Positions 39,518-47,060 of a stretch of 64,000 nucleotides of DNA are shown here, in pieces; within the stretch, counting starts at the first letter, position 1; every line of letters begins with the position of its first letter. The stretch is taken from IMG/VR virus record IMGVR_UViG_2939127364_000001. The stretch is one strand, 5' to 3'. Source of the stretch: a virus (Duplodnaviria; Heunggongvirae; Uroviricota; Caudoviricetes). The notes under the pieces are model-generated. The model was not told where the DNA came from. It saw only the letters and a program-made list of their open reading frames with translations, and made no database searches. The position numbers and the translations under genes were made by a program.

Positions 39518-41077
39518 ATGACTGTTCGGATTGTATCTAACGCAGTTAATGCGCTTATTTCTGGCGCAGATGACAAGGTAAAGCAAATGGTGCAACAGAT
39601 GTTGAGCTACGAAGTCGAGACTGGCGACTGGAAGGGCACAAGCACGATGTTCAACTGGAGTAAAAACTCGTTCCCTGCTGGCTTTGCCAAGCCTGTAGCG
39701 GCGAACTTGAACAAGGCGGGCATCAAATGTGTTCATATCCGCAAAGACAAAGCCCCGGCGCTTGGTAAACCAAATCCGGCGGTTAACCCATTCCCATACA
39801 ATCCTGATTATGCGTATCAGGATCAGACTGTGGAAACACTGGTTCGAGAGGGAATGATGATTGCGCAGATCGCTACTGGTGGCGGGAAATCTAACGTTGC
39901 CTGCAAAGCAGCTGCACGTATCGGTCGAATGACATTATTTTTAACAACCCGCTCTGTTCTGATGTTTCAAATGGCCGAAAACTTCCAGAGATCCATCGAC
40001 TACCGCGCCGAAAATGGCGAACCGTGGTTAAAAGACCAAAAGGTTGGAGTCATTGGCTCTGGTGAGTTCCAGGTATCACGACATATCAACGTCGCTACAG
40101 TTCAAACTCTGGCAAGTTTCCTTGAAGAACCACCACGCGATGCAACTCCAGATAAGAAGAGCTACCACCTCAAACGTCGGGACTTGGTGAAACGCTTCCT
40201 TTCAAGTGTGTCTCTGCTTATTCTGGAAGAGGCGCATGAGTCTTCAGGTTCTAATTTCTATGACATTGCCAGATTATGTGTGAACGCAGACTATCGTCTG
40301 GCACTTACGGCCACGCCGTTCATGAAGGATTCTACAGAAGCCAACATGCGTCTGATGGCTGTGGCTGGGCGAATTGAAATCAAAGTCACAGAAAAGTACC
40401 TGATTGATCGAGGCATTCTGGCAAAACCGTACTTCCTTTATCATAAAGTTGCCTACAAGCCAGACGAGGTCAGAATAAAGGCGGAACTTGCCAACAAACA
40501 CCTCAATTTTAGAGTAGGTATGAGCACAGCCTACCAAAAGGCTTATCAGTTGGGCATCGTGTATAATTTGGGACGTAATGAGGCCATTGTTCGCGAAGCA
40601 TTGCTCTATAAGCAACATTCTCTCAATTGTATGACTCTGGTTCGTCTTAAACGCCACGGGAAAATCCTGATGGAAATGATGAAAGAGTCCGGCCTTAGAG
40701 TTGACTTCATTTATGGGGAATCGAACCAGTCGACAAGGCAAGCAAAGCTGAACAGTTTAGCGTCTGGTGAAATAGATGTTTTAATAGGCTCGACTATTCT
40801 GGATGTTGGTGTTGATGTGCCAAGCGTTGGTGCGGTCATTCTTGCTGGTGGTGGGAAAGCAGAAGTTGAAATGAGACAGCGTGTCGGTCGTGGCTTACGA
40901 GCCAAGAAGAATCAGGCAAACGTGTGTTTTATCACTGATTTCATTGACATTAGCAACAAATACCTGTTGTCTCACTCTTATGAGCGAAAACACATCATCG
41001 ACACCACACCTGGCTTTGCAGAAGGTGTATTGCCTATTGATGGCGCATTCGATTTTGGAGTTCTGAAACGAGATTAG
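39518..41077 (+). CDS. Superfamily 2 DEAD/DEAH-like helicase
   Basis: 519 aa; motif I ATGGGKSNV, motif II LILEEAHE, motif III TATP, motif VI QRVGRGLR. Confidence 0.75.
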   Translation: MTVRIVSNAVNALISGADDKVKQMVQQMLSYEVETGDWKGTSTMFNWSKNSFPAGFAKPVAANLNKAGIKCVHIRKDKAPALGKPNPAVNPFPYNPDYAYQDQTVETLVREGMMIAQIATGGGKSNVACKAAARIGRMTLFLTTRSVLMFQMAENFQRSIDYRAENGEPWLKDQKVGVIGSGEFQVSRHINVATVQTLASFLEEPPRDATPDKKSYHLKRRDLVKRFLSSVSLLILEEAHESSGSNFYDIARLCVNADYRLALTATPFMKDSTEANMRLMAVAGRIEIKVTEKYLIDRGILAKPYFLYHKVAYKPDEVRIKAELANKHLNFRVGMSTAYQKAYQLGIVYNLGRNEAIVREALLYKQHSLNCMTLVRLKRHGKILMEMMKESGLRVDFIYGESNQSTRQAKLNSLASGEIDVLIGSTILDVGVDVPSVGAVILAGGGKAEVEMRQRVGRGLRAKKNQANVCFITDFIDISNKYLLSHSYERKHIIDTTPGFAEGVLPIDGAFDFGVLKRD

Positions 41078-41079
41078 TT

Positions 41080-41358
41080 ATGAGCGAAAAGAAAACAACT
41101 TATTGCCAAGTGGCATTGTCTGATAAGGCCAATGAAAAACTTGGAAAATTTCAAATAAAACTCAAAGAGAAAAAAATCAAGATGTCTAAGGCTGAAGTTA
41201 TCAATGCCATTCTGGAGACGATGACTATGGCTGAATTTGACAAAGTCACATCTGCTGTTGGGGTTTCCGCTAAGACGCGTGAGAAAATCATGCGCATCTA
41301 TGAAAACTCCAATATGACAAAAAAAGATTTAGAGGAAATACTGAGCAGGTTGCCGTAA
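41080..41358 (+). CDS. Small hypothetical protein
   Basis: 92 aa, starts 3 nt after the helicase stop. Confidence 0.45.
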   Translation: MSEKKTTYCQVALSDKANEKLGKFQIKLKEKKIKMSKAEVINAILETMTMAEFDKVTSAVGVSAKTREKIMRIYENSNMTKKDLEEILSRLP

Positions 41359-41423
41359 CATTTCATATTTACCCCCTATCTACTAATTCTATGATGTGCT
41401 CACTTGTTAGAAAGGAGCACATC

Positions 41424-41990
41424 ATGAGTTGGTTAAAAGAATTATCATTTGTTGACACCACTGGCGCTAAGAAAAATCATTCTTTCTGGAAAGTCAGCGA
41501 TCCTTCTGATTTTCTTGTTGGTGCTAATGCTGCTTTTGAATTGCTTAACTTTTATCAACGTTATCCAGAAATGAAACACAGTCCACTCCTGTACAGAATA
41601 ACAAACGATATGAATAGGTCTGGTTTATTATCAAGTGAGTCAGCGAAAGGCTTTTTTAGCAAAATTACGCCTCACATATCATTCGATGCAACAAACGAAA
41701 TTGATTATCTATCCACGAAATCTCAAGAACAATTATCTGTACCACCTGAGAAAAAAGAAAGACGAATTGCCAGCATTGAAAATATATCGAAAGAGCTTCG
41801 CACAACAACGTTGAGGCTGCTGAACTTTCTTACGCTGCTTAATTGGATAGATGATCAAACATTGATTCCATCAACAGATGCGTTGGATAACAGAGTCCTT
41901 AGGCTGAACAAAAAATCGCAATTTGGTTTTGTGTTCACCAAAAAAGGTGAAGATTTAATCAAAAGAAAATATAGATTATTGAATGATTAA
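41424..41990 (+). CDS. Hypothetical protein (AT-rich moron gene 1)
   Basis: Track ORF 41391..41990; ATG at 41424 follows GAAAGGAG; low GC; a 9-bp inverted repeat gatgtgctc/gagcacatc spans the SD. Confidence 0.5.
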   Translation: MSWLKELSFVDTTGAKKNHSFWKVSDPSDFLVGANAAFELLNFYQRYPEMKHSPLLYRITNDMNRSGLLSSESAKGFFSKITPHISFDATNEIDYLSTKSQEQLSVPPEKKERRIASIENISKELRTTTLRLLNFLTLLNWIDDQTLIPSTDALDNRVLRLNKKSQFGFVFTKKGEDLIKRKYRLLND

Positions 41991-42130
41991 TAGTCTACAT
42001 GCAGGTGTATGAGAGCACCTGCATGTGACATTCGTCACGTTTTTTGAAACATATACCTCCGGCTGAAAAAAGATCTTGATTGGCTGAACGATATTTGTAG
42101 GCTTACCTATGTTTAGAACCGGAGGCATGA

Positions 42131-42679
42131 ATGGGTCACTTACCTTTTGATAAGAGATTTTTAAGTGCAAAGGAAATAAAGGACTGTGTGGATTTTTATC
42201 ATAAAAAAAATAAACAGAAATCTTGCTTAGAAAACCCTAGACACCTAACTTCTTCTCAAAAAGAAGAGCACAAACTAATACAATACAGGTTAAAGACTTC
42301 ACGTAAAGATCGTTATGAACACTATATATACGTGAAAGATATTGAAGGCACCAGGACAAATTGCGGAGTAGTCTTTTATCCTTTTGATATAACAAAAATG
42401 TTCGCTATTATGGACTCCTGTGATGGCGTGGCCCCTGGAAAATTGGAGTTGCATTCAAATTTATACACTTATCCCAGTGCTCGGAAATGGATAAGAGATA
42501 GCACGTCACCCTATGGTTTTTCTTTTCTTTTCAAAAATCATCTGGCATTAAAAAATTTTATCGAAAAATACAACAACTGCATATCATCAGGTGAATTAAG
42601 TTTCGACAAAGTCTGTAAAAACATAAAAAGATATGACCTCTTAAAAGATATTTACAACAGAACTCAGAAGAGCATGTAG
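42131..42679 (+). CDS. Hypothetical protein (AT-rich moron gene 2)
   Basis: 182 aa; low GC; no recognisable motif. Confidence 0.5.
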   Translation: MGHLPFDKRFLSAKEIKDCVDFYHKKNKQKSCLENPRHLTSSQKEEHKLIQYRLKTSRKDRYEHYIYVKDIEGTRTNCGVVFYPFDITKMFAIMDSCDGVAPGKLELHSNLYTYPSARKWIRDSTSPYGFSFLFKNHLALKNFIEKYNNCISSGELSFDKVCKNIKRYDLLKDIYNRTQKSM

Positions 42680-42706
42680 CCACTCACTAATCATAGTCAA
42701 TCAAAT

Positions 42707-43126
42707 ATGAAAGCAAAAAACTTAATGATTCTAATGCTAACCACGTCACTAATTGGGTGTTCGTCTTCGTCTATATCTATTTCAAAGGCAAAGGATGCAC
42801 CTCAAAGCAGAATATTTAAATATCAAACACCACATGAGTCTAGTCTAACAATAGTTCGAGACAAAGGGCTGGTTGGTTCTGCATGTAACGCTTCCATTTT
42901 CATCAATGGAGAAACGGCTGCAAAGCTAGAACCTGGTGAAAAAGCAACTTTCTACCTTAACGAAGGAGAGTGGATCGTTGGGACATCAATTGAAAGTTCA
43001 GGTCTTTGCGCATTTAACCCCTCCAGGATGGAACGAGAAATAAAGCTAAAGCAGGGCGACTCGAAAACATATCGGGTTTTCACTACCTGGGATGGTACAA
43101 TGGACATATTGCCAACCACTTTATAA
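42707..43126 (+). CDS. Lipoprotein (superinfection-exclusion candidate)
   Basis: 139 aa; signal peptide with lipobox LTTSLIGCSSS. Confidence 0.6.
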   Translation: MKAKNLMILMLTTSLIGCSSSSISISKAKDAPQSRIFKYQTPHESSLTIVRDKGLVGSACNASIFINGETAAKLEPGEKATFYLNEGEWIVGTSIESSGLCAFNPSRMEREIKLKQGDSKTYRVFTTWDGTMDILPTTL

Positions 43127-43130
43127 TGAT

Positions 43131-43652
43131 ATGACGACGAAAGACATCACCTACGGCATACCGGCTGAAGTCTGGCCGCGAGACTACGAACATGCAGAGC
43201 GCACCTTGCTCTTCTGGCGGAGTGCAAAATTTCCTGTAAGAGTCACTCTCGAAGACGGCCAAGTGTTTTGCATGTATGTCTACGGGCTATTGAGCGCAAG
43301 AAATAAGCTGAACCTCACACCAGATCCGCTTAGCAACACAAATCGTATAAGGCTCCCTCTTGAGCGCATTAGCACAATTGAGTCGGGCATAGAAGAGGTT
43401 GACACTTCATTCACAGGTCGACTAACGCTAAACAATGAACAGATGGTTAATCAGCCATCACGTCGTGACTTTTTTAAGATATGTCGTCAGGCTTACCAAA
43501 ACGGCAAATCTATAAGGGTCTACATGGCAGACGGTCGCGAAATTGAGGGAACGTCAGATGGCGTTGACGCCTGTCTAGTCACACTTAAGTTGGAAGACGG
43601 TAGAAAAATACTTATTTTCTTCGATTGGGTTGAACGAATCCTTCCGTTTTAA
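43131..43652 (+). CDS. Hypothetical protein
   Basis: Track ORF 43092..43652; start set at ATG 43131, just after the lipoprotein stop. Confidence 0.4.
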   Translation: MTTKDITYGIPAEVWPRDYEHAERTLLFWRSAKFPVRVTLEDGQVFCMYVYGLLSARNKLNLTPDPLSNTNRIRLPLERISTIESGIEEVDTSFTGRLTLNNEQMVNQPSRRDFFKICRQAYQNGKSIRVYMADGREIEGTSDGVDACLVTLKLEDGRKILIFFDWVERILPF

Positions 43653-43665
43653 TTTCTATAAGGGT

Positions 43666-43696
43666 AATAACCGGCTAAGTCCGGTTATTATTTTAC
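43666..43696 (+). terminator. Rho-independent terminator
   Basis: aataaccgg-ctaagt-ccggttatt followed by attttac. Confidence 0.55.
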
Positions 43697-43949
43697 ATGC
43701 CATTCGTTTAACACTCATTCAATTCTCCCCCGTATAAATATATAAGGTCAAAAGCCGGAATTTATTATTTATTTAGGGAACACCTTCGACGATCTCGCTT
43801 TTATTTCTAAGACTTTCATCCCTGCAAAAAAACTTAAAAAAACACTTGCAATCTTTTTTCGCGTATCGATAATTGAACGCATCAGGAACGAGTGCAAAAC
43901 ACTTTCTTTCTTGAGTTAAATTTTAATATTTATACTAAGGAATAAAATC

Positions 43950-44600
43950 ATGGCTAACATTATCATTTCTAAAAAATCCATCATTGAAGCTGCTGCCATT
44001 GTATCCGACGAGCTGCGCGAAAAAGCAGATCTGGCAACTCAAACATATAACGAACATTATAAAAATGGTACGCACACAAAAGCAGACAAAGCAAACATGC
44101 AAGCTGCGACCACTAAACTTGCTTACTTCATCAACAACGTTGTGAACGCAGTAGAAGACGAAAAATTATGCTCTGTTTTCTACTATGCGATCAAAGCAAG
44201 CAAACAAGCGCCAGAAGTATTTTTCCGTGATGCAATGACTAATAGTTATTCACTGGAAAAACTGGTCTATCTGGTCAAATCAATTAAAGCTGGAAAGTGT
44301 GTTTATTCCGTCGCTGATATGTCCGGATCTCGTGTATTCGCATTAATCGATATGATTAACGACGAGATCGACACGTTCACCAATGGCGCTGTTTTCGATT
44401 TAATGAATGAAGCGAAAAAAGCGTGCGAAATTAAATTGGACGCTGGCTATACTCAAGCCAACCAGTTGATCAATCTTTGCGAACGTCTTGGACTTGTTGA
44501 AAAAGTCAAAGGAGCTGGGAGCGCGAAAGCTGGTACTCAGCAATATCGCTTCATTAAAAATGATTTCTATAACTATCTGGCTGATGCTTTCAAAGCGTAA
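43950..44600 (+). CDS. Hypothetical protein (insulated single-gene unit)
   Basis: 216 aa; long AT-rich upstream region; RBS AAGGAA; terminator immediately downstream. Confidence 0.55.
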   Translation: MANIIISKKSIIEAAAIVSDELREKADLATQTYNEHYKNGTHTKADKANMQAATTKLAYFINNVVNAVEDEKLCSVFYYAIKASKQAPEVFFRDAMTNSYSLEKLVYLVKSIKAGKCVYSVADMSGSRVFALIDMINDEIDTFTNGAVFDLMNEAKKACEIKLDAGYTQANQLINLCERLGLVEKVKGAGSAKAGTQQYRFIKNDFYNYLADAFKA

Positions 44601-44613
44601 TTAATGGAATCTT

Positions 44614-44634
44614 GCGCCCACTATGGGCGCTTTT
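44614..44634 (+). terminator. Terminator hairpin GCGCCCACTATGGGCGC, copy 1
   Basis: gcgccca-cta-tgggcgc followed by tttt. Confidence 0.6.
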
Positions 44635-44647
44635 AAGGAGCTTAATC

Positions 44648-46186: not shown

Positions 46187-46777
46187 TCAGCGAGCAGATG
46201 AATAATATCCTTGAATTAGCTTTTCATCCACATACGGATACAGGAAGCGACGCGGGTTAGTTTGTCTGTGATTAAAAAAGTCTCTGTCATCGAAATATTG
46301 GGCACAATGATCATGGAATCCATGAATTGCATTAACAGCTAGTTCGCGGATGTCTTCATCTGTCTTGTCTGGTTTTGAATTGTACACATATATAGTAGGA
46401 TCAAGATCATACTCATTAATTGAGACTTCGACAAGTGCGTCTGGCTCTTCGCCAAACTGCTCAAGCCAAAAAAATCTTGTCATTTTCTCGTTGTGTAAAG
46501 ATGCCACTCCATAAAAATCCATTGGGAAACGAGTTTTAAGATCGCCATTCAGAATCTCTTCATCTGGCTCTTTTTCTACAATGTAAACATCCTTAGTTTT
46601 GATATACTCCACCATAGGATTAACCATTTTTAATTTTGCGTTCCAAAAATCTTCTTCTTTTTTGCGCATTTCTTCTTCTGCTTGCTGAAACTCTGCTTCT
46701 GCGGATTTCATTTCTTTCATAGTCTGTCCATATACTTCGTACAGTTCATTGGTTTTTTTCTCTAAATCAATGCTCAT
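46187..46777 (-). CDS. Hypothetical early protein
   Basis: 196 aa, acidic, coiled-coil N-terminus; half-site TTGTTTTC upstream. Confidence 0.5.
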   Translation of the reverse strand: MSIDLEKKTNELYEVYGQTMKEMKSAEAEFQQAEEEMRKKEEDFWNAKLKMVNPMVEYIKTKDVYIVEKEPDEEILNGDLKTRFPMDFYGVASLHNEKMTRFFWLEQFGEEPDALVEVSINEYDLDPTIYVYNSKPDKTDEDIRELAVNAIHGFHDHCAQYFDDRDFFNHRQTNPRRFLYPYVDEKLIQGYYSSAR

Positions 46778-47060
46778 TTTTAATTCCTCGTTTGTTTTCG
46801 ATGTGATAATTATCGCTGAATGAAATAGGCTAAAAAGAAGATTTATAAGGCTACTATCTGGAAGTAAGGCAAAGTGTTGTCATTTAAGGCCACCAATGCT
46901 GATGGCCTTAATAATTATCGCACGATTACGCTAAGGATCTTTTCCTCAACTGATTTGTTGTTGCGACTAAACTGCCTTGCGTATCTGATGACAGAAGAGG
47001 CGTTTTGCTTTCTGACCATCTCGGCTCTTTCCTTCAGGCGTTTCTTGAAATCGCCCATAT

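What the first reader, a model, noticed from the sequence alone, without database searches (positions are those of the whole stretch)
41391..43126. AT-rich three-gene insertion (two unknowns plus a lipoprotein) with moron character
This block is visibly lower in GC than its flanks and encodes 188-aa and 182-aa proteins with no recognisable motifs followed by a lipoprotein with a lipobox (LIGCSSS). Prophage lipoproteins are classic superinfection-exclusion factors; the other two genes could form an abortive-infection or other defence pair. A 9-bp inverted repeat (gatgtgctc / gagcacatc) sequesters the SD of the first gene.
Basis: partly seen in the sequence, partly recalled or inferred. Interest (0 to 1): 0.65.

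Follow-up and report, generated by a model that had tools for sequence, protein, structure and literature searches.

The report
Variable accessory locus of a phage-plasmid
The AT-rich block is real, but it is not one inserted unit: it is part of a recombination hotspot in an SSU5-type phage-plasmid, holding a tightly locked orphan gene, a nuclease-less copy of the front half of an HNH nuclease, and an old, widespread outer-membrane lipoprotein gene whose functions remain untested.

Summary
The block has GC 0.367 against 0.465 for the window, which puts it in the lowest 0.8% of same-size windows. It carries three real genes under purifying selection, a lipobox, and a very stable hairpin over the first gene's ribosome-binding site.

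The window is an Escherichia SSU5/pHCM2-type phage-plasmid. About 45 related loci show a mosaic locus with four slots: A | B-family | exported protein | FljA-like regulator. Cassettes are exchanged at fixed junctions (about 41360, 42104, 43140, 43650), so this is not a single insertion.

- **Lipoprotein:** nearly core, found in 414 plasmids including Yersinia pestis and Salmonella plasmids of about 100 kb. It sits 4 nt before the FljA-like gene.
- **Gene A:** found in 177 plasmids. It lies between a conserved hairpin covering its SD and AUG and a covariation-supported terminator. It is nearly silent in a published lysogen transcriptome.
- **Gene B:** found in 18 plasmids. It is the stand-alone form of the N-terminal domain of HNH nucleases that occupy the same slot in relatives.

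A and B occur independently, and neither matches a known defence family. Function is inferred, not shown. Interest is moderate.

The parts
41080..41358 (+). p92, a conserved 92-aa gene (phrog_1466) that follows the UvsW-like helicase. It is the left anchor of the variable locus.
   Evidence: The identical Cyrano gene CYRAN_117 is expressed 12-fold above background in the lysogen (PMC9928086). Its dS against relatives is 0.8-0.9, compared with 0.10 in the helicase.
41382..41433 (+). Hairpin covering the SD (GGAG) and AUG of gene A. The perfect 11-bp arms are at 41391-41401 and 41415-41425. A promoter-like site, TTTACC-16-TATGAT (41368-41395), overlaps the left arm.
   Evidence: dG is -28.5 kcal/mol with z = -7. 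The hairpin is present in all 9 A-family loci, at -22 to -29 kcal/mol, and carries one compensated G:C to C:G swap and G-U pairs in the extension. Covariation is not statistically significant.
41424..41990 (+). Gene A, a 188-aa cytoplasmic orphan protein (phrog_13473).
   Evidence: tblastn finds it in 177 plasmids, including 42%-identical copies at the same position in Klebsiella and Enterobacter elements. dN/dS is 0.13-0.37. The AF2 model is unusable at pLDDT 42. Remnants of its start and end remain where it has been deleted.
41997..42046 (+). Tandem hairpins plus a T-run after gene A, forming an intrinsic terminator. Hairpin 1 is 41997-42026, hairpin 2 is 42023-42040, followed by TTTTTT.
   Evidence: dG -24.8, z -4.6. 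Compensatory changes occur in 8 of 15 pairs, and 0 of 500 shuffles reach the observed covariation score.
42056..42103 (+). A 48-nt element that is nearly invariant across lineages and ends at the cassette junction. It contains the weak promoter-like TTGATT-16-TAGGCT. Its CCTCCGG (42056-42062) is complementary to B's SD region CCGGAGG (42119-42125).
   Evidence: Alignment of six lineages. Similarity to relatives ends at 42103/42104. A promoter function is inferred only.
42131..42679 (+). Gene B, 182 aa. It is the stand-alone form of the N-terminal domain of HNH nucleases that occupy the same slot in related elements.
   Evidence: It is 54% identical over its full length to residues 1-172 of P0027, a 348-aa protein with a C-terminal HNH domain. 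P0027 lies in the same slot. A second, distant fusion of 377 aa is in L010. Only 5 clusters were found among 1.84 billion representatives, and only 18 plasmids carry it. dN/dS is 0.06-0.20.
42707..43126 (+). Outer-membrane-type lipoprotein, 139 aa (phrog_890). It has lipobox LIGC with Ser at position +2, two conserved Cys residues, and a weak DUF2846-like signal.
   Evidence: It is found in 414 plasmids and in SSU5 as gene 122. Its stop lies 4 nt before the start of the FljA-like gene.
43131..43652 (+). FljA-like gene (PF03614). It is the right-hand partner of the lipoprotein and the right anchor of the cassette.
   Evidence: Pfam E = 1.8e-68 over the full length. Every occupant of the slot on the + strand directly upstream of it is an exported protein whose stop overlaps or closely abuts its start; some alleles instead carry a reverse-strand lipoprotein there. 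Identity among relatives is only 61-100%, while the flanking genes are 98-100% identical.

Best explanation
The block is the left three-quarters of a hypervariable, low-GC accessory locus found in SSU5/pHCM2-type phage-plasmids. The locus lies between the replication-associated helicase-p92 genes and the conserved 216-aa gene. It has four slots: A | B-family | exported protein | FljA-like regulator.

Shown: alleles of each slot are exchanged by recombination at fixed junctions. The window's combination A+B+lipoprotein is therefore one rare assortment (5 plasmids), not a single insertion.

Gene A (shown): it is an insulated unit. A conserved hairpin of -28 kcal/mol buries its SD and AUG, a covariation-supported intrinsic terminator follows it, and its mRNA is near background in a lysogen. 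Inferred: A is kept off and is translated only when the hairpin is opened or bypassed, as expected for a product that is harmful or needed only transiently.

Gene B (shown): it is the nuclease-less form of the N-terminal domain of proteins that carry a C-terminal HNH domain, the same domain order as McrA, in the same slot of sister elements. Inferred: the B domain is the target-recognition part, most likely DNA-binding. The stand-alone protein would then bind the same target without cutting, acting either as a regulator or as a shield or decoy against the nuclease-bearing alleles of competing elements.

Lipoprotein (shown): it is an ancestral, nearly core lipoprotein with an outer-membrane-type sorting signal, placed 4 nt upstream of the FljA-like gene. 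Inferred: the two are co-expressed in lysogens as an envelope-remodelling, lysogenic-conversion module, by analogy with fljB-fljA. Whether this excludes other phages is untested.
For: Identity of the element.

Mosaic structure: helicase and p216 are 98-100% identical in ~45 related loci, while every combination of A, B, lipoprotein and other occupants is seen between them.

Fixed junctions: blastn similarity breaks at 42103/4, 43140-43 and 43650/55, and a Klebsiella element shares the 42103 junction.

Divergence: dS is 0.8-4.4 inside the locus and 0.10-0.19 in the flanks. dN/dS is below 0.4 for all three genes.

Prevalence: lipoprotein 414 plasmids, A 177, B 18. The full block is in 5 of 5426 complete E. 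coli genomes, always on plasmids.

Gene A: hairpin, terminator covariation, and RNA-seq of the identical A allele in Cyrano (PMC9928086 Table S1).

Gene B: B::HNH fusions in the same slot. The HNH domain's best solved relative is EcoKMcrA, also at the C-terminus. HNH-bearing and HNH-less forms are interleaved in the family; P0016 is 70% identical to the B domain of P0027.

Exported slot: every + strand occupant directly upstream of FljA has a signal peptide or lipobox, and its stop overlaps or lies within a few nucleotides of the FljA start. The reverse-strand lipoprotein and the FljA-like gene of Cyrano rise to log2 8-9 in DMEM and in macrophages.
Against: - No function has been shown for A, B or the lipoprotein.
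- The structure models were poor (pLDDT 42 and 58), and fold searches gave nothing specific.
- The B domain shows no detectable similarity to the McrA N-terminal domain or to any known DNA-binding fold, so DNA binding rests on domain architecture alone.
- B is frameshifted in one assembly (L045) and is rare, which also fits decay.
- Covariation in the 5' hairpin is a single event and is not significant. The same palindrome could be a DNA operator overlapping a promoter-like site.
- The RNA-seq comes from a relative that carries A but a different downstream cassette. There are no expression data for B or for this lipoprotein.
- FljA-like genes also occur in elements of the non-flagellated Klebsiella and, presumably, Y. 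pestis, so the fljB-fljA analogy may not extend to the target.
Confidence: 0.55

Rival explanations
1. The block is a single horizontally acquired moron. A and B work together as an abortive-infection or defence pair, and the lipoprotein is a superinfection-exclusion factor.
For: The block has low GC. The segment varies between relatives. Relatives of B carry a nuclease domain with weak matches to PADLOC type IV restriction and HNH models. Curing an SSU5-like Klebsiella plasmid raised plasmid uptake and phage burst, but no gene was mapped (PMC8969562).
Against: A and B occur independently. The lipoprotein is ancestral and nearly core. The three genes have separate junctions. The window's three proteins have no PADLOC match apart from a chance-level one. 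A is silent in a lysogen. The lipoprotein gene is not next to the receptor-binding genes and matches no known exclusion family in Pfam or PHROGs.
Confidence: 0.12
2. B is the decaying remnant of a selfish HNH (homing-type or restriction-type) endonuclease gene that lost its catalytic domain. It has no function of its own, and the low GC and patchy distribution reflect the life cycle of a mobile nuclease gene.
For: HNH-fused alleles occupy the same slot. B is rare, in 18 plasmids. One allele is frameshifted. The slot has precise insertion junctions.
Against: Intact stand-alone ORFs of 180-185 aa persist in at least four lineages that are 53-71% identical to one another. dN/dS is 0.06-0.20 and dS reaches 0.9 to above 4, which implies long purifying selection. 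All of them end at the same domain boundary.
Confidence: 0.15
3. The 11-bp inverted repeat works at the DNA level. It is an operator overlapping the promoter of gene A and is bound by an element-encoded repressor, for example the abundant p92 protein. It is not an mRNA hairpin.
For: A promoter-like TTTACC-16-TATGAT has its -10 box inside the left arm, and its spacing is kept in Klebsiella-type loci. A symmetric change in both half-sites fits an operator equally well. A's mRNA, and not only its translation, is low.
Against: The helix extends beyond the perfect repeat through G-U pairs and into the coding sequence, which matters only in RNA. The half-site occurs nowhere else in the 64 kb. The centre-to-centre distance of 24 bp is unusual for a dimeric operator (general knowledge). 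The promoter match is only 9 of 12, and the count of such sites in the region is at the chance level.
Confidence: 0.25
4. A, and possibly B, are ordinary regulatory or replication-associated phage-plasmid genes linked to the helicase-p92 module, and not accessory or conflict genes.
For: A is kept at the same position next to helicase-p92 across Escherichia, Klebsiella and Enterobacter elements.
Against: A is absent from SSU5, from elements that carry only the lipoprotein, and from many Escherichia elements, and it has been cleanly deleted in others that remain widespread. B is in only 18 plasmids.
Confidence: 0.1

Closest known systems
Moron and accessory-gene hotspots of temperate phages and phage-plasmids (for example the Cyrano/pLF82 morons in PMC9928086, and the variable gene repertoires of phage-plasmids in PMC7969092)
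   Same: A low-GC segment between conserved genes, with presence/absence and allelic variation among near-identical elements. Gene A has its own terminator. Neighbouring genes (p92, the FljA-like gene, and the reverse-strand lipoprotein in Cyrano) are expressed in lysogens.
   Different: The locus is a multi-slot mosaic with fixed junctions rather than one inserted cassette. Gene A is not expressed in the lysogen. The lipoprotein is ancestral to the whole supergroup.
EcoKMcrA (prophage e14 type IV restriction endonuclease; PDB 6ghc)
   Same: Relatives of B (P0027 at 348 aa, and the 377-aa L010 protein) have the same order of parts: an N-terminal domain of about 175 aa, a linker, and a C-terminal Cys4-type HNH domain. 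McrA is the best solved match for that HNH domain (E = 5.8e-4). All are encoded on a temperate mobile element.
   Different: The window's B has no HNH domain at all. The B domain shows no detectable sequence or fold similarity to the McrA N-terminal domain. No modification dependence is known.
fljB-fljA operon of Salmonella (a surface protein gene followed by the FljA repressor of fliC translation)
   Same: A gene for an exported or surface protein is followed, with overlapping or nearly abutting stop and start, by a full-length PF03614 FljA homologue.
   Different: The upstream gene encodes a lipoprotein or a periplasmic protein, not a flagellin. The module also occurs in elements of the non-flagellated Klebsiella, so the target of the FljA-like protein is probably not host fliC.
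Prophage lipoproteins that block superinfection or alter the envelope (T5 Llp, phi80/N15 Cor, lambda Bor, TP-J34 Ltp). This comparison rests on general knowledge.
   Same: A small lipoprotein with a lipobox and an outer-membrane-type sorting signal, carried by a temperate element.
   Different: There is no sequence relationship, only a weak sub-threshold DUF2846 signal. The gene is not next to tail or receptor-binding genes. SSU5 is reported to use the LPS core as its receptor (general knowledge), so an Llp/Cor-type mechanism that masks a receptor protein is not implied.

Membership tests
Moron (autonomously expressed prophage accessory gene) | Base composition differs from the surrounding genome | tested here: met
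   GC is 0.367 against 0.465, in the lowest 0.8% of same-size windows. GC3 is 0.31-0.35 against 0.47.
Moron (autonomously expressed prophage accessory gene) | Present or absent between otherwise closely related genomes, as one unit | tested here: not met
   The segment is variable, but A, B and the lipoprotein vary independently and have separate junctions. The lipoprotein is nearly core.
Moron (autonomously expressed prophage accessory gene) | Own promoter and terminator | tested here: inconclusive
   The terminator after A is well supported. The promoter-like sites are weak, and their number is at the chance level. No terminator was found after the lipoprotein, which runs straight into the FljA-like gene.
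Moron (autonomously expressed prophage accessory gene) | Expressed from the repressed prophage | tested here: not met
   For A, the identical allele CYRAN_116 is at background in LB (log2 3.7 and 2.3, with a floor of 2.32), and 16-20-fold below p92 in all conditions (PMC9928086 Table S1). There are no data for B or for this lipoprotein.
Known anti-phage defence systems (PADLOC-DB v2) | Significant match of a component protein to a defence-system model | tested here: not met
   A has only a chance-level SspC hit (E = 0.005, 12.5 bits). B and the lipoprotein have none.
McrA-like type IV restriction endonuclease | HNH catalytic domain | tested here: not met
   B ends at the domain boundary, 27 nt before the lipoprotein gene. 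No HNH-like sequence occurs anywhere in the window. The relatives P0027 and the L010 377-aa protein do carry PF01844, with the Cys4 and His residues intact.
McrA-like type IV restriction endonuclease | N-terminal domain that recognises modified DNA | tested here: inconclusive
   No similarity to the McrA N-terminal domain or to any PDB or Pfam entry, by profile or by fold. The model is of low confidence (pLDDT 58). Binding cannot be tested here.
Toxin-antitoxin or two-gene abortive-infection pair (A+B) | The two genes strictly co-occur and are co-transcribed | tested here: not met
   A occurs without B in L002 and L004-L007. B occurs without A in L003, L027, L038 and L040. A conserved terminator lies between them.
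Bacterial lipoprotein | Signal peptide with a lipobox [LVI][ASTVI][GAS]C | tested here: met
   MKAKNLMILMLTTSLIGC18, with Ser at position +2. The Cys is invariant in 10 homologues.
DUF2846 (PF11008) | Score above the Pfam gathering threshold | tested here: not met
   The window protein scores 14.4 bits against a cut-off of 34.3. Five of 10 homologues match weakly, with a best E of 6e-4.
Superinfection-exclusion lipoproteins (Llp, Cor, Ltp) | Homology to a characterised exclusion protein, or blocking of phage entry | not testable with these tools
   The Pfam and PHROGs scans returned no family annotated as such; PHROGs assigns only 'lipoprotein', phrog_890. A test of function needs an experiment.
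Intrinsic (Rho-independent) terminator (element after gene A) | A conserved GC-containing hairpin followed by a T-run | tested here: met
   Stem 42023-42040 followed by TTTTTT, preceded by a larger hairpin. Eight of 15 pairs carry compensatory changes, and 0 of 500 shuffles reach the observed score.

The most novel reading that the evidence does not exclude
The B domain is a new target-recognition domain of nucleases with McrA-like architecture, used by SSU5-type phage-plasmids against each other or against phages. The nuclease-less B would be an immunity or decoy protein that occupies the same target and so protects its carrier from B::HNH alleles of competing elements. The hairpin-locked gene A would be a conditionally translated, harmful effector released only on a specific trigger. 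Together they would form a previously undescribed inter-element conflict locus with exchangeable attack and shield alleles.
Probability: 0.1. Interest if true: 0.7.

Novelty: new member of a known kind. Interest (0 to 1): 0.4.

Why it matters
SSU5/pHCM2-type phage-plasmids are common in clinical E. coli, Shigella, Salmonella Typhi, Klebsiella and Yersinia pestis, yet their accessory genes are almost entirely uncharacterised. This analysis turns an apparent AT-rich insertion into a defined four-slot exchange locus with mapped junctions.

It gives three concrete, testable objects:
- a translationally locked orphan gene;
- an uncharacterised domain family found either fused to an HNH nuclease or alone;
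- a nearly universal module of a lipoprotein gene plus an FljA-like gene.

If the B family proves to be a nuclease/shield allele pair, or if the lipoprotein-FljA module changes envelope or phage sensitivity, that would explain part of how these elements compete and what they do to their hosts. As it stands, this is a well-delimited example of a familiar phenomenon, a phage accessory hotspot, and no new mechanism has been demonstrated.

Tried and rejected
- **Sequence and profile searches.** Searches of A, B and the lipoprotein against PDB, Pfam, NCBIfam, PADLOC and PHROGs returned only families of unknown function or chance-level hits.
- **KilAC/ANT-like motif in A.** I suspected one in A's C-terminus from memory of the pattern. 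Neither Pfam nor PHROGs supports it, so I dropped it.
- **Locating P0027.** Scans of viral, genome and metagenome contigs found nothing. The exact-protein look-up succeeded.
- **Rfam.** A scan of 40900-44000 found no family.
- **Operator sites.** A search for further copies of the inverted-repeat half-site found none in the 64 kb.
- **Covariation in the 5' hairpin.** It rests on a single event and is not significant.
- **Literature.** Searches for an SSU5/pHCM2 lipoprotein, a phage-plasmid FljA, or DUF2846 found no functional study of these genes.
Full report
**What the window is.** Megablast of 41000-43700 finds Escherichia phage Cyrano (pLF82), phage CMS-2020a, Salmonella phage SSU5 and 453 plasmids of about 105-115 kb, nearly all non-mobilizable, from Escherichia, Enterobacter, Yersinia, Salmonella, Citrobacter and Klebsiella. 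The annotated neighbourhoods all have the same order: ABC-type ATPase, two ParB-like genes, a DEAD/UvsW-like helicase, a 92-aa gene, a variable stretch, a 'transcriptional regulator', and a 216-aa gene. The window is therefore an SSU5/pHCM2-type phage-plasmid. The finding lies between the helicase-p92 pair (39518-41358) and a full-length FljA homologue (43131-43652; PF03614, E = 1.8e-68).

**Checking the observation.**
- The block 41391-43126 has GC 0.367 against 0.465 for the window. Only 0.8% of equal-sized windows are as low, and the window's minimum lies here.
- The three ORFs are A (41424-41990, 188 aa), B (42131-42679, 182 aa) and a 139-aa protein (42707-43126) with lipobox LIGC18 and Ser at +2.
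- The inverted repeat is 11 perfect bp, not 9, at 41391-41401 and 41415-41425.
- As RNA the helix extends to 41382-41433, with dG -28.5 kcal/mol and z = -7.0. It pairs the GGAG of the SD and the AUG.
- All three genes are under purifying selection, with dN/dS of 0.06-0.37, so they are real genes.
- A and B have no Pfam, NCBIfam, PADLOC or PDB sequence match. PHROGs places them only in families of unknown function.

**It is not one insertion.** I collected ~45 related loci and located the seven genes in 39 of them by tblastn; the rest were read from their annotation or gene calls.

The helicase and the 216-aa gene are 98-100% identical among the Escherichia elements. Between them, these arrangements occur:

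| Arrangement | Loci |
|---|---|
| A + B + lipoprotein | window, L001 |
| A + a reverse-strand 266-aa lipoprotein | Cyrano L004, L002 |
| A + a 162-aa B-like protein + a 204-aa secreted protein | L009 |
| A + a 377-aa B-like::HNH protein + the reverse lipoprotein | L010 |
| B (71% or 62% identical) + lipoprotein, without A | L003, L027, L038 |
| lipoprotein only | L028-L039, SSU5 itself |
| a 197-aa secreted protein only | L021-L026 |

Klebsiella and Enterobacter elements carry a 42%-identical A at the same position. There it stands alone, or with the reverse lipoprotein, or with a 196-aa secreted protein.

Where A is missing from the B+lipoprotein elements, its hairpin and its last ~20 bp are still present, so A was deleted there.

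Pairwise blastn places the similarity breaks at about 41360 or 41424, at 42103/42104, at 43140-43143 and at 43650/55. The Klebsiella element shares the 42103 junction.

Synonymous divergence inside the locus is 0.8-4.4, against 0.10-0.19 in the flanks. The alleles are therefore old and are exchanged by recombination.

Prevalence by tblastn in 72,556 plasmids:
- The lipoprotein family is in 414, including Yersinia pestis and Salmonella plasmids of about 100 kb.
- The A family is in 177.
- The B family is in 18.

The full block is in 5 of 5426 complete E. coli genomes, always on plasmids. The order A-B-lipoprotein-FljA also occurs in a second, divergent lineage, L045, where B is frameshifted.

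**Gene A.** It is an orphan. Searches across 5.8 billion proteins and the plasmid collection find it only in these elements. The AF2 model is unusable at pLDDT 42, and profile searches of PDB, Pfam and PHROGs are empty.

What can be said concerns its control.
- The 5' hairpin is present in all nine A-family loci examined, at -22 to -29 kcal/mol, while the loop and the upstream spacer have diverged.
- One G:C to C:G swap is compensated, and the extension uses G-U pairs. This is a single event and is not statistically significant.
- Downstream, two overlapping hairpins (41997-42026 and 42023-42040) and a T-run form an intrinsic terminator. Compensatory changes occur in 8 of 15 pairs, and no shuffle out of 500 reaches the observed covariation.
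- Published RNA-seq of E. coli LF82, whose phage-plasmid Cyrano carries an A allele and a p92 identical to the window's, shows p92 (CYRAN_117) at 12 times the local background. A (CYRAN_116) is at the floor in LB and 16-20-fold below p92 in every condition (PMC9928086 Table 1 and Table S1).

A is thus an insulated unit that is kept off in lysogens, at the transcript level and, by inference from the hairpin, at translation. A promoter-like TTTACC-16-TATGAT overlaps the left arm, so a DNA-operator reading of the palindrome remains a live rival.

**Gene B.** An exhaustive HMMER search of 1.84 billion cluster representatives with a B profile found only five clusters.
- One of them, P0027 (348 aa), aligns with B over B's whole length at 54% identity. 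It continues into a linker and a C-terminal HNH domain (PF01844) with the CxxC...HH...N...CxxCH motifs intact.
- P0027 sits in exactly the same slot of Klebsiella-type elements: helicase, p92, A, P0027, a 196-aa secreted protein, FljA.
- A second, very distant fusion is the 377-aa L010 protein, 27% identical to B (E = 1e-5). Its HNH domain's best solved relative is EcoKMcrA, where the domain is likewise C-terminal.
- Stand-alone and fused forms are interleaved in the family. P0016 is 70% identical to P0027's B domain, while the two fused forms share only about 20%.
- All stand-alone forms end at the same domain boundary.

B is therefore the nuclease-less version of the N-terminal domain of an HNH enzyme family with McrA-like domain order.

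By architecture, the most likely role is target recognition, probably of DNA. A stand-alone copy under purifying selection (dN/dS 0.06-0.20) would then bind without cutting. That step is inference.

In SSU5-type elements B is always followed by the 139/140-aa lipoprotein gene.

**The lipoprotein.** It belongs to phrog_890 ('lipoprotein'). It has an invariant lipobox Cys and two further conserved Cys residues. It gives only sub-threshold DUF2846 matches, in 5 of 10 homologues with a best E of 6e-4. DUF2846 has no known function.

Its stop lies 4 nt before the FljA-like start. On the + strand, every other occupant directly upstream of FljA is also exported, either a lipoprotein or a 196-204-aa protein with a type I signal peptide. 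Their stops overlap the FljA start (ATGA, TAATG) or lie a few nucleotides before it.

In Cyrano the corresponding lipoprotein, which is on the reverse strand, and the FljA-like gene rise to log2 8-9 in DMEM and in macrophages.

The lipoprotein is thus best seen as the partner of the FljA-like gene in an ancestral module, formally similar to fljB-fljA, and not as cargo that arrived with A and B.

Because Klebsiella elements keep the FljA-like gene, its target is probably not host flagellin. Superinfection exclusion is possible but has no specific support. No known exclusion family matches, and the gene is not near the tail genes.

**The junction element.** Between A's terminator and the cassette lies a 48-nt stretch (42056-42103) that is almost invariant from Escherichia to Klebsiella. 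It ends exactly where the cassettes diverge. It contains a weak TTGATT-16-TAGGCT. It probably serves both as the left homology arm for cassette exchange and as a promoter region, but that is inference.

**Comparison with known systems and verdict.** The locus behaves like a classic accessory or 'moron' hotspot of a temperate element. It fails two defining moron features as a unit: it is not one insertable cassette, and A is not expressed in the lysogen. B fails membership of the McrA-like restriction enzymes because it lacks the nuclease, although its relatives have that architecture. No known defence family matches. An SSU5-like Klebsiella plasmid has been reported to lower plasmid uptake and phage burst (PMC8969562), but no gene was mapped.

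The finding is real, and its anatomy is now well defined, but it is an uncharacterised example of a familiar kind. The structural and evolutionary description is secure. The functional readings (locked effector, non-cutting target binder, envelope-conversion module) are inferences of low to moderate confidence.

Noticed in passing
window 43131-43652: This is a full-length FljA homologue ('repressor of phase-1 flagellin', PF03614, E = 1.8e-68). It is unusually variable, at 61-100% amino-acid identity among elements whose flanking genes are 98-100% identical. It is also kept in phage-plasmids of the non-flagellated Klebsiella, so its RNA target is probably not host fliC.
   Followed up: partly
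window 41080-41358: This 92-aa gene (phrog_1466) follows the helicase. The identical Cyrano gene is one of the most strongly expressed lysogen genes, at 12 times background (PMC9928086). Transcript level then drops about 13-fold or more into gene A, exactly across the hairpin at 41382-41433.
   Followed up: partly
window 42056-42103: A 48-nt element, CCTCCGGCTGAAAAAAGATCTTGATTGGCTGAACGATATTTGTAGGCT, is nearly invariant from Escherichia to Klebsiella elements and ends exactly at the cassette junction. It may be a promoter, a recombination arm, or both. Its CCTCCGG is complementary to B's SD region CCGGAGG at 42119-42125.
   Followed up: partly
window 43650-43655 and 44631-44643: Two further insertion/deletion junctions. 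Relatives carry an 83-99-aa signal-peptide protein gene after the FljA-like gene and a gene of about 200 bp after the 216-aa gene. The window lacks both.
   Followed up: no
L010 6052-7185; L042 6001-7047: Two very divergent HNH nucleases (377 and 348 aa) have a B-family N-terminal domain and sit in the same slot of sister phage-plasmids. Their HNH domain is closest to EcoKMcrA among solved structures, and it also resembles HNH genes that are common on conjugative Klebsiella plasmids.
   Followed up: partly
L045 3856-4872: In this Logan assembly the B gene is split by a frameshift (53 + 143 aa), and the 139-aa-type lipoprotein gene downstream was not called. This could be real decay or an assembly error.
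   Followed up: no
window 43600-44200 and 46400-47000: Further low-GC pockets (0.33-0.36) lie outside the reported block, so low GC is a regional feature of this part of the element and not unique to the three genes.
   Followed up: no
L041 4851-5390 (K. michiganensis 301-kb conjugative plasmid): This is the only B-family member found outside an SSU5-type element. It is 30% identical, stands alone, and lies near DsbA/thioredoxin-fold genes and a lytic transglycosylase gene.
   Followed up: no
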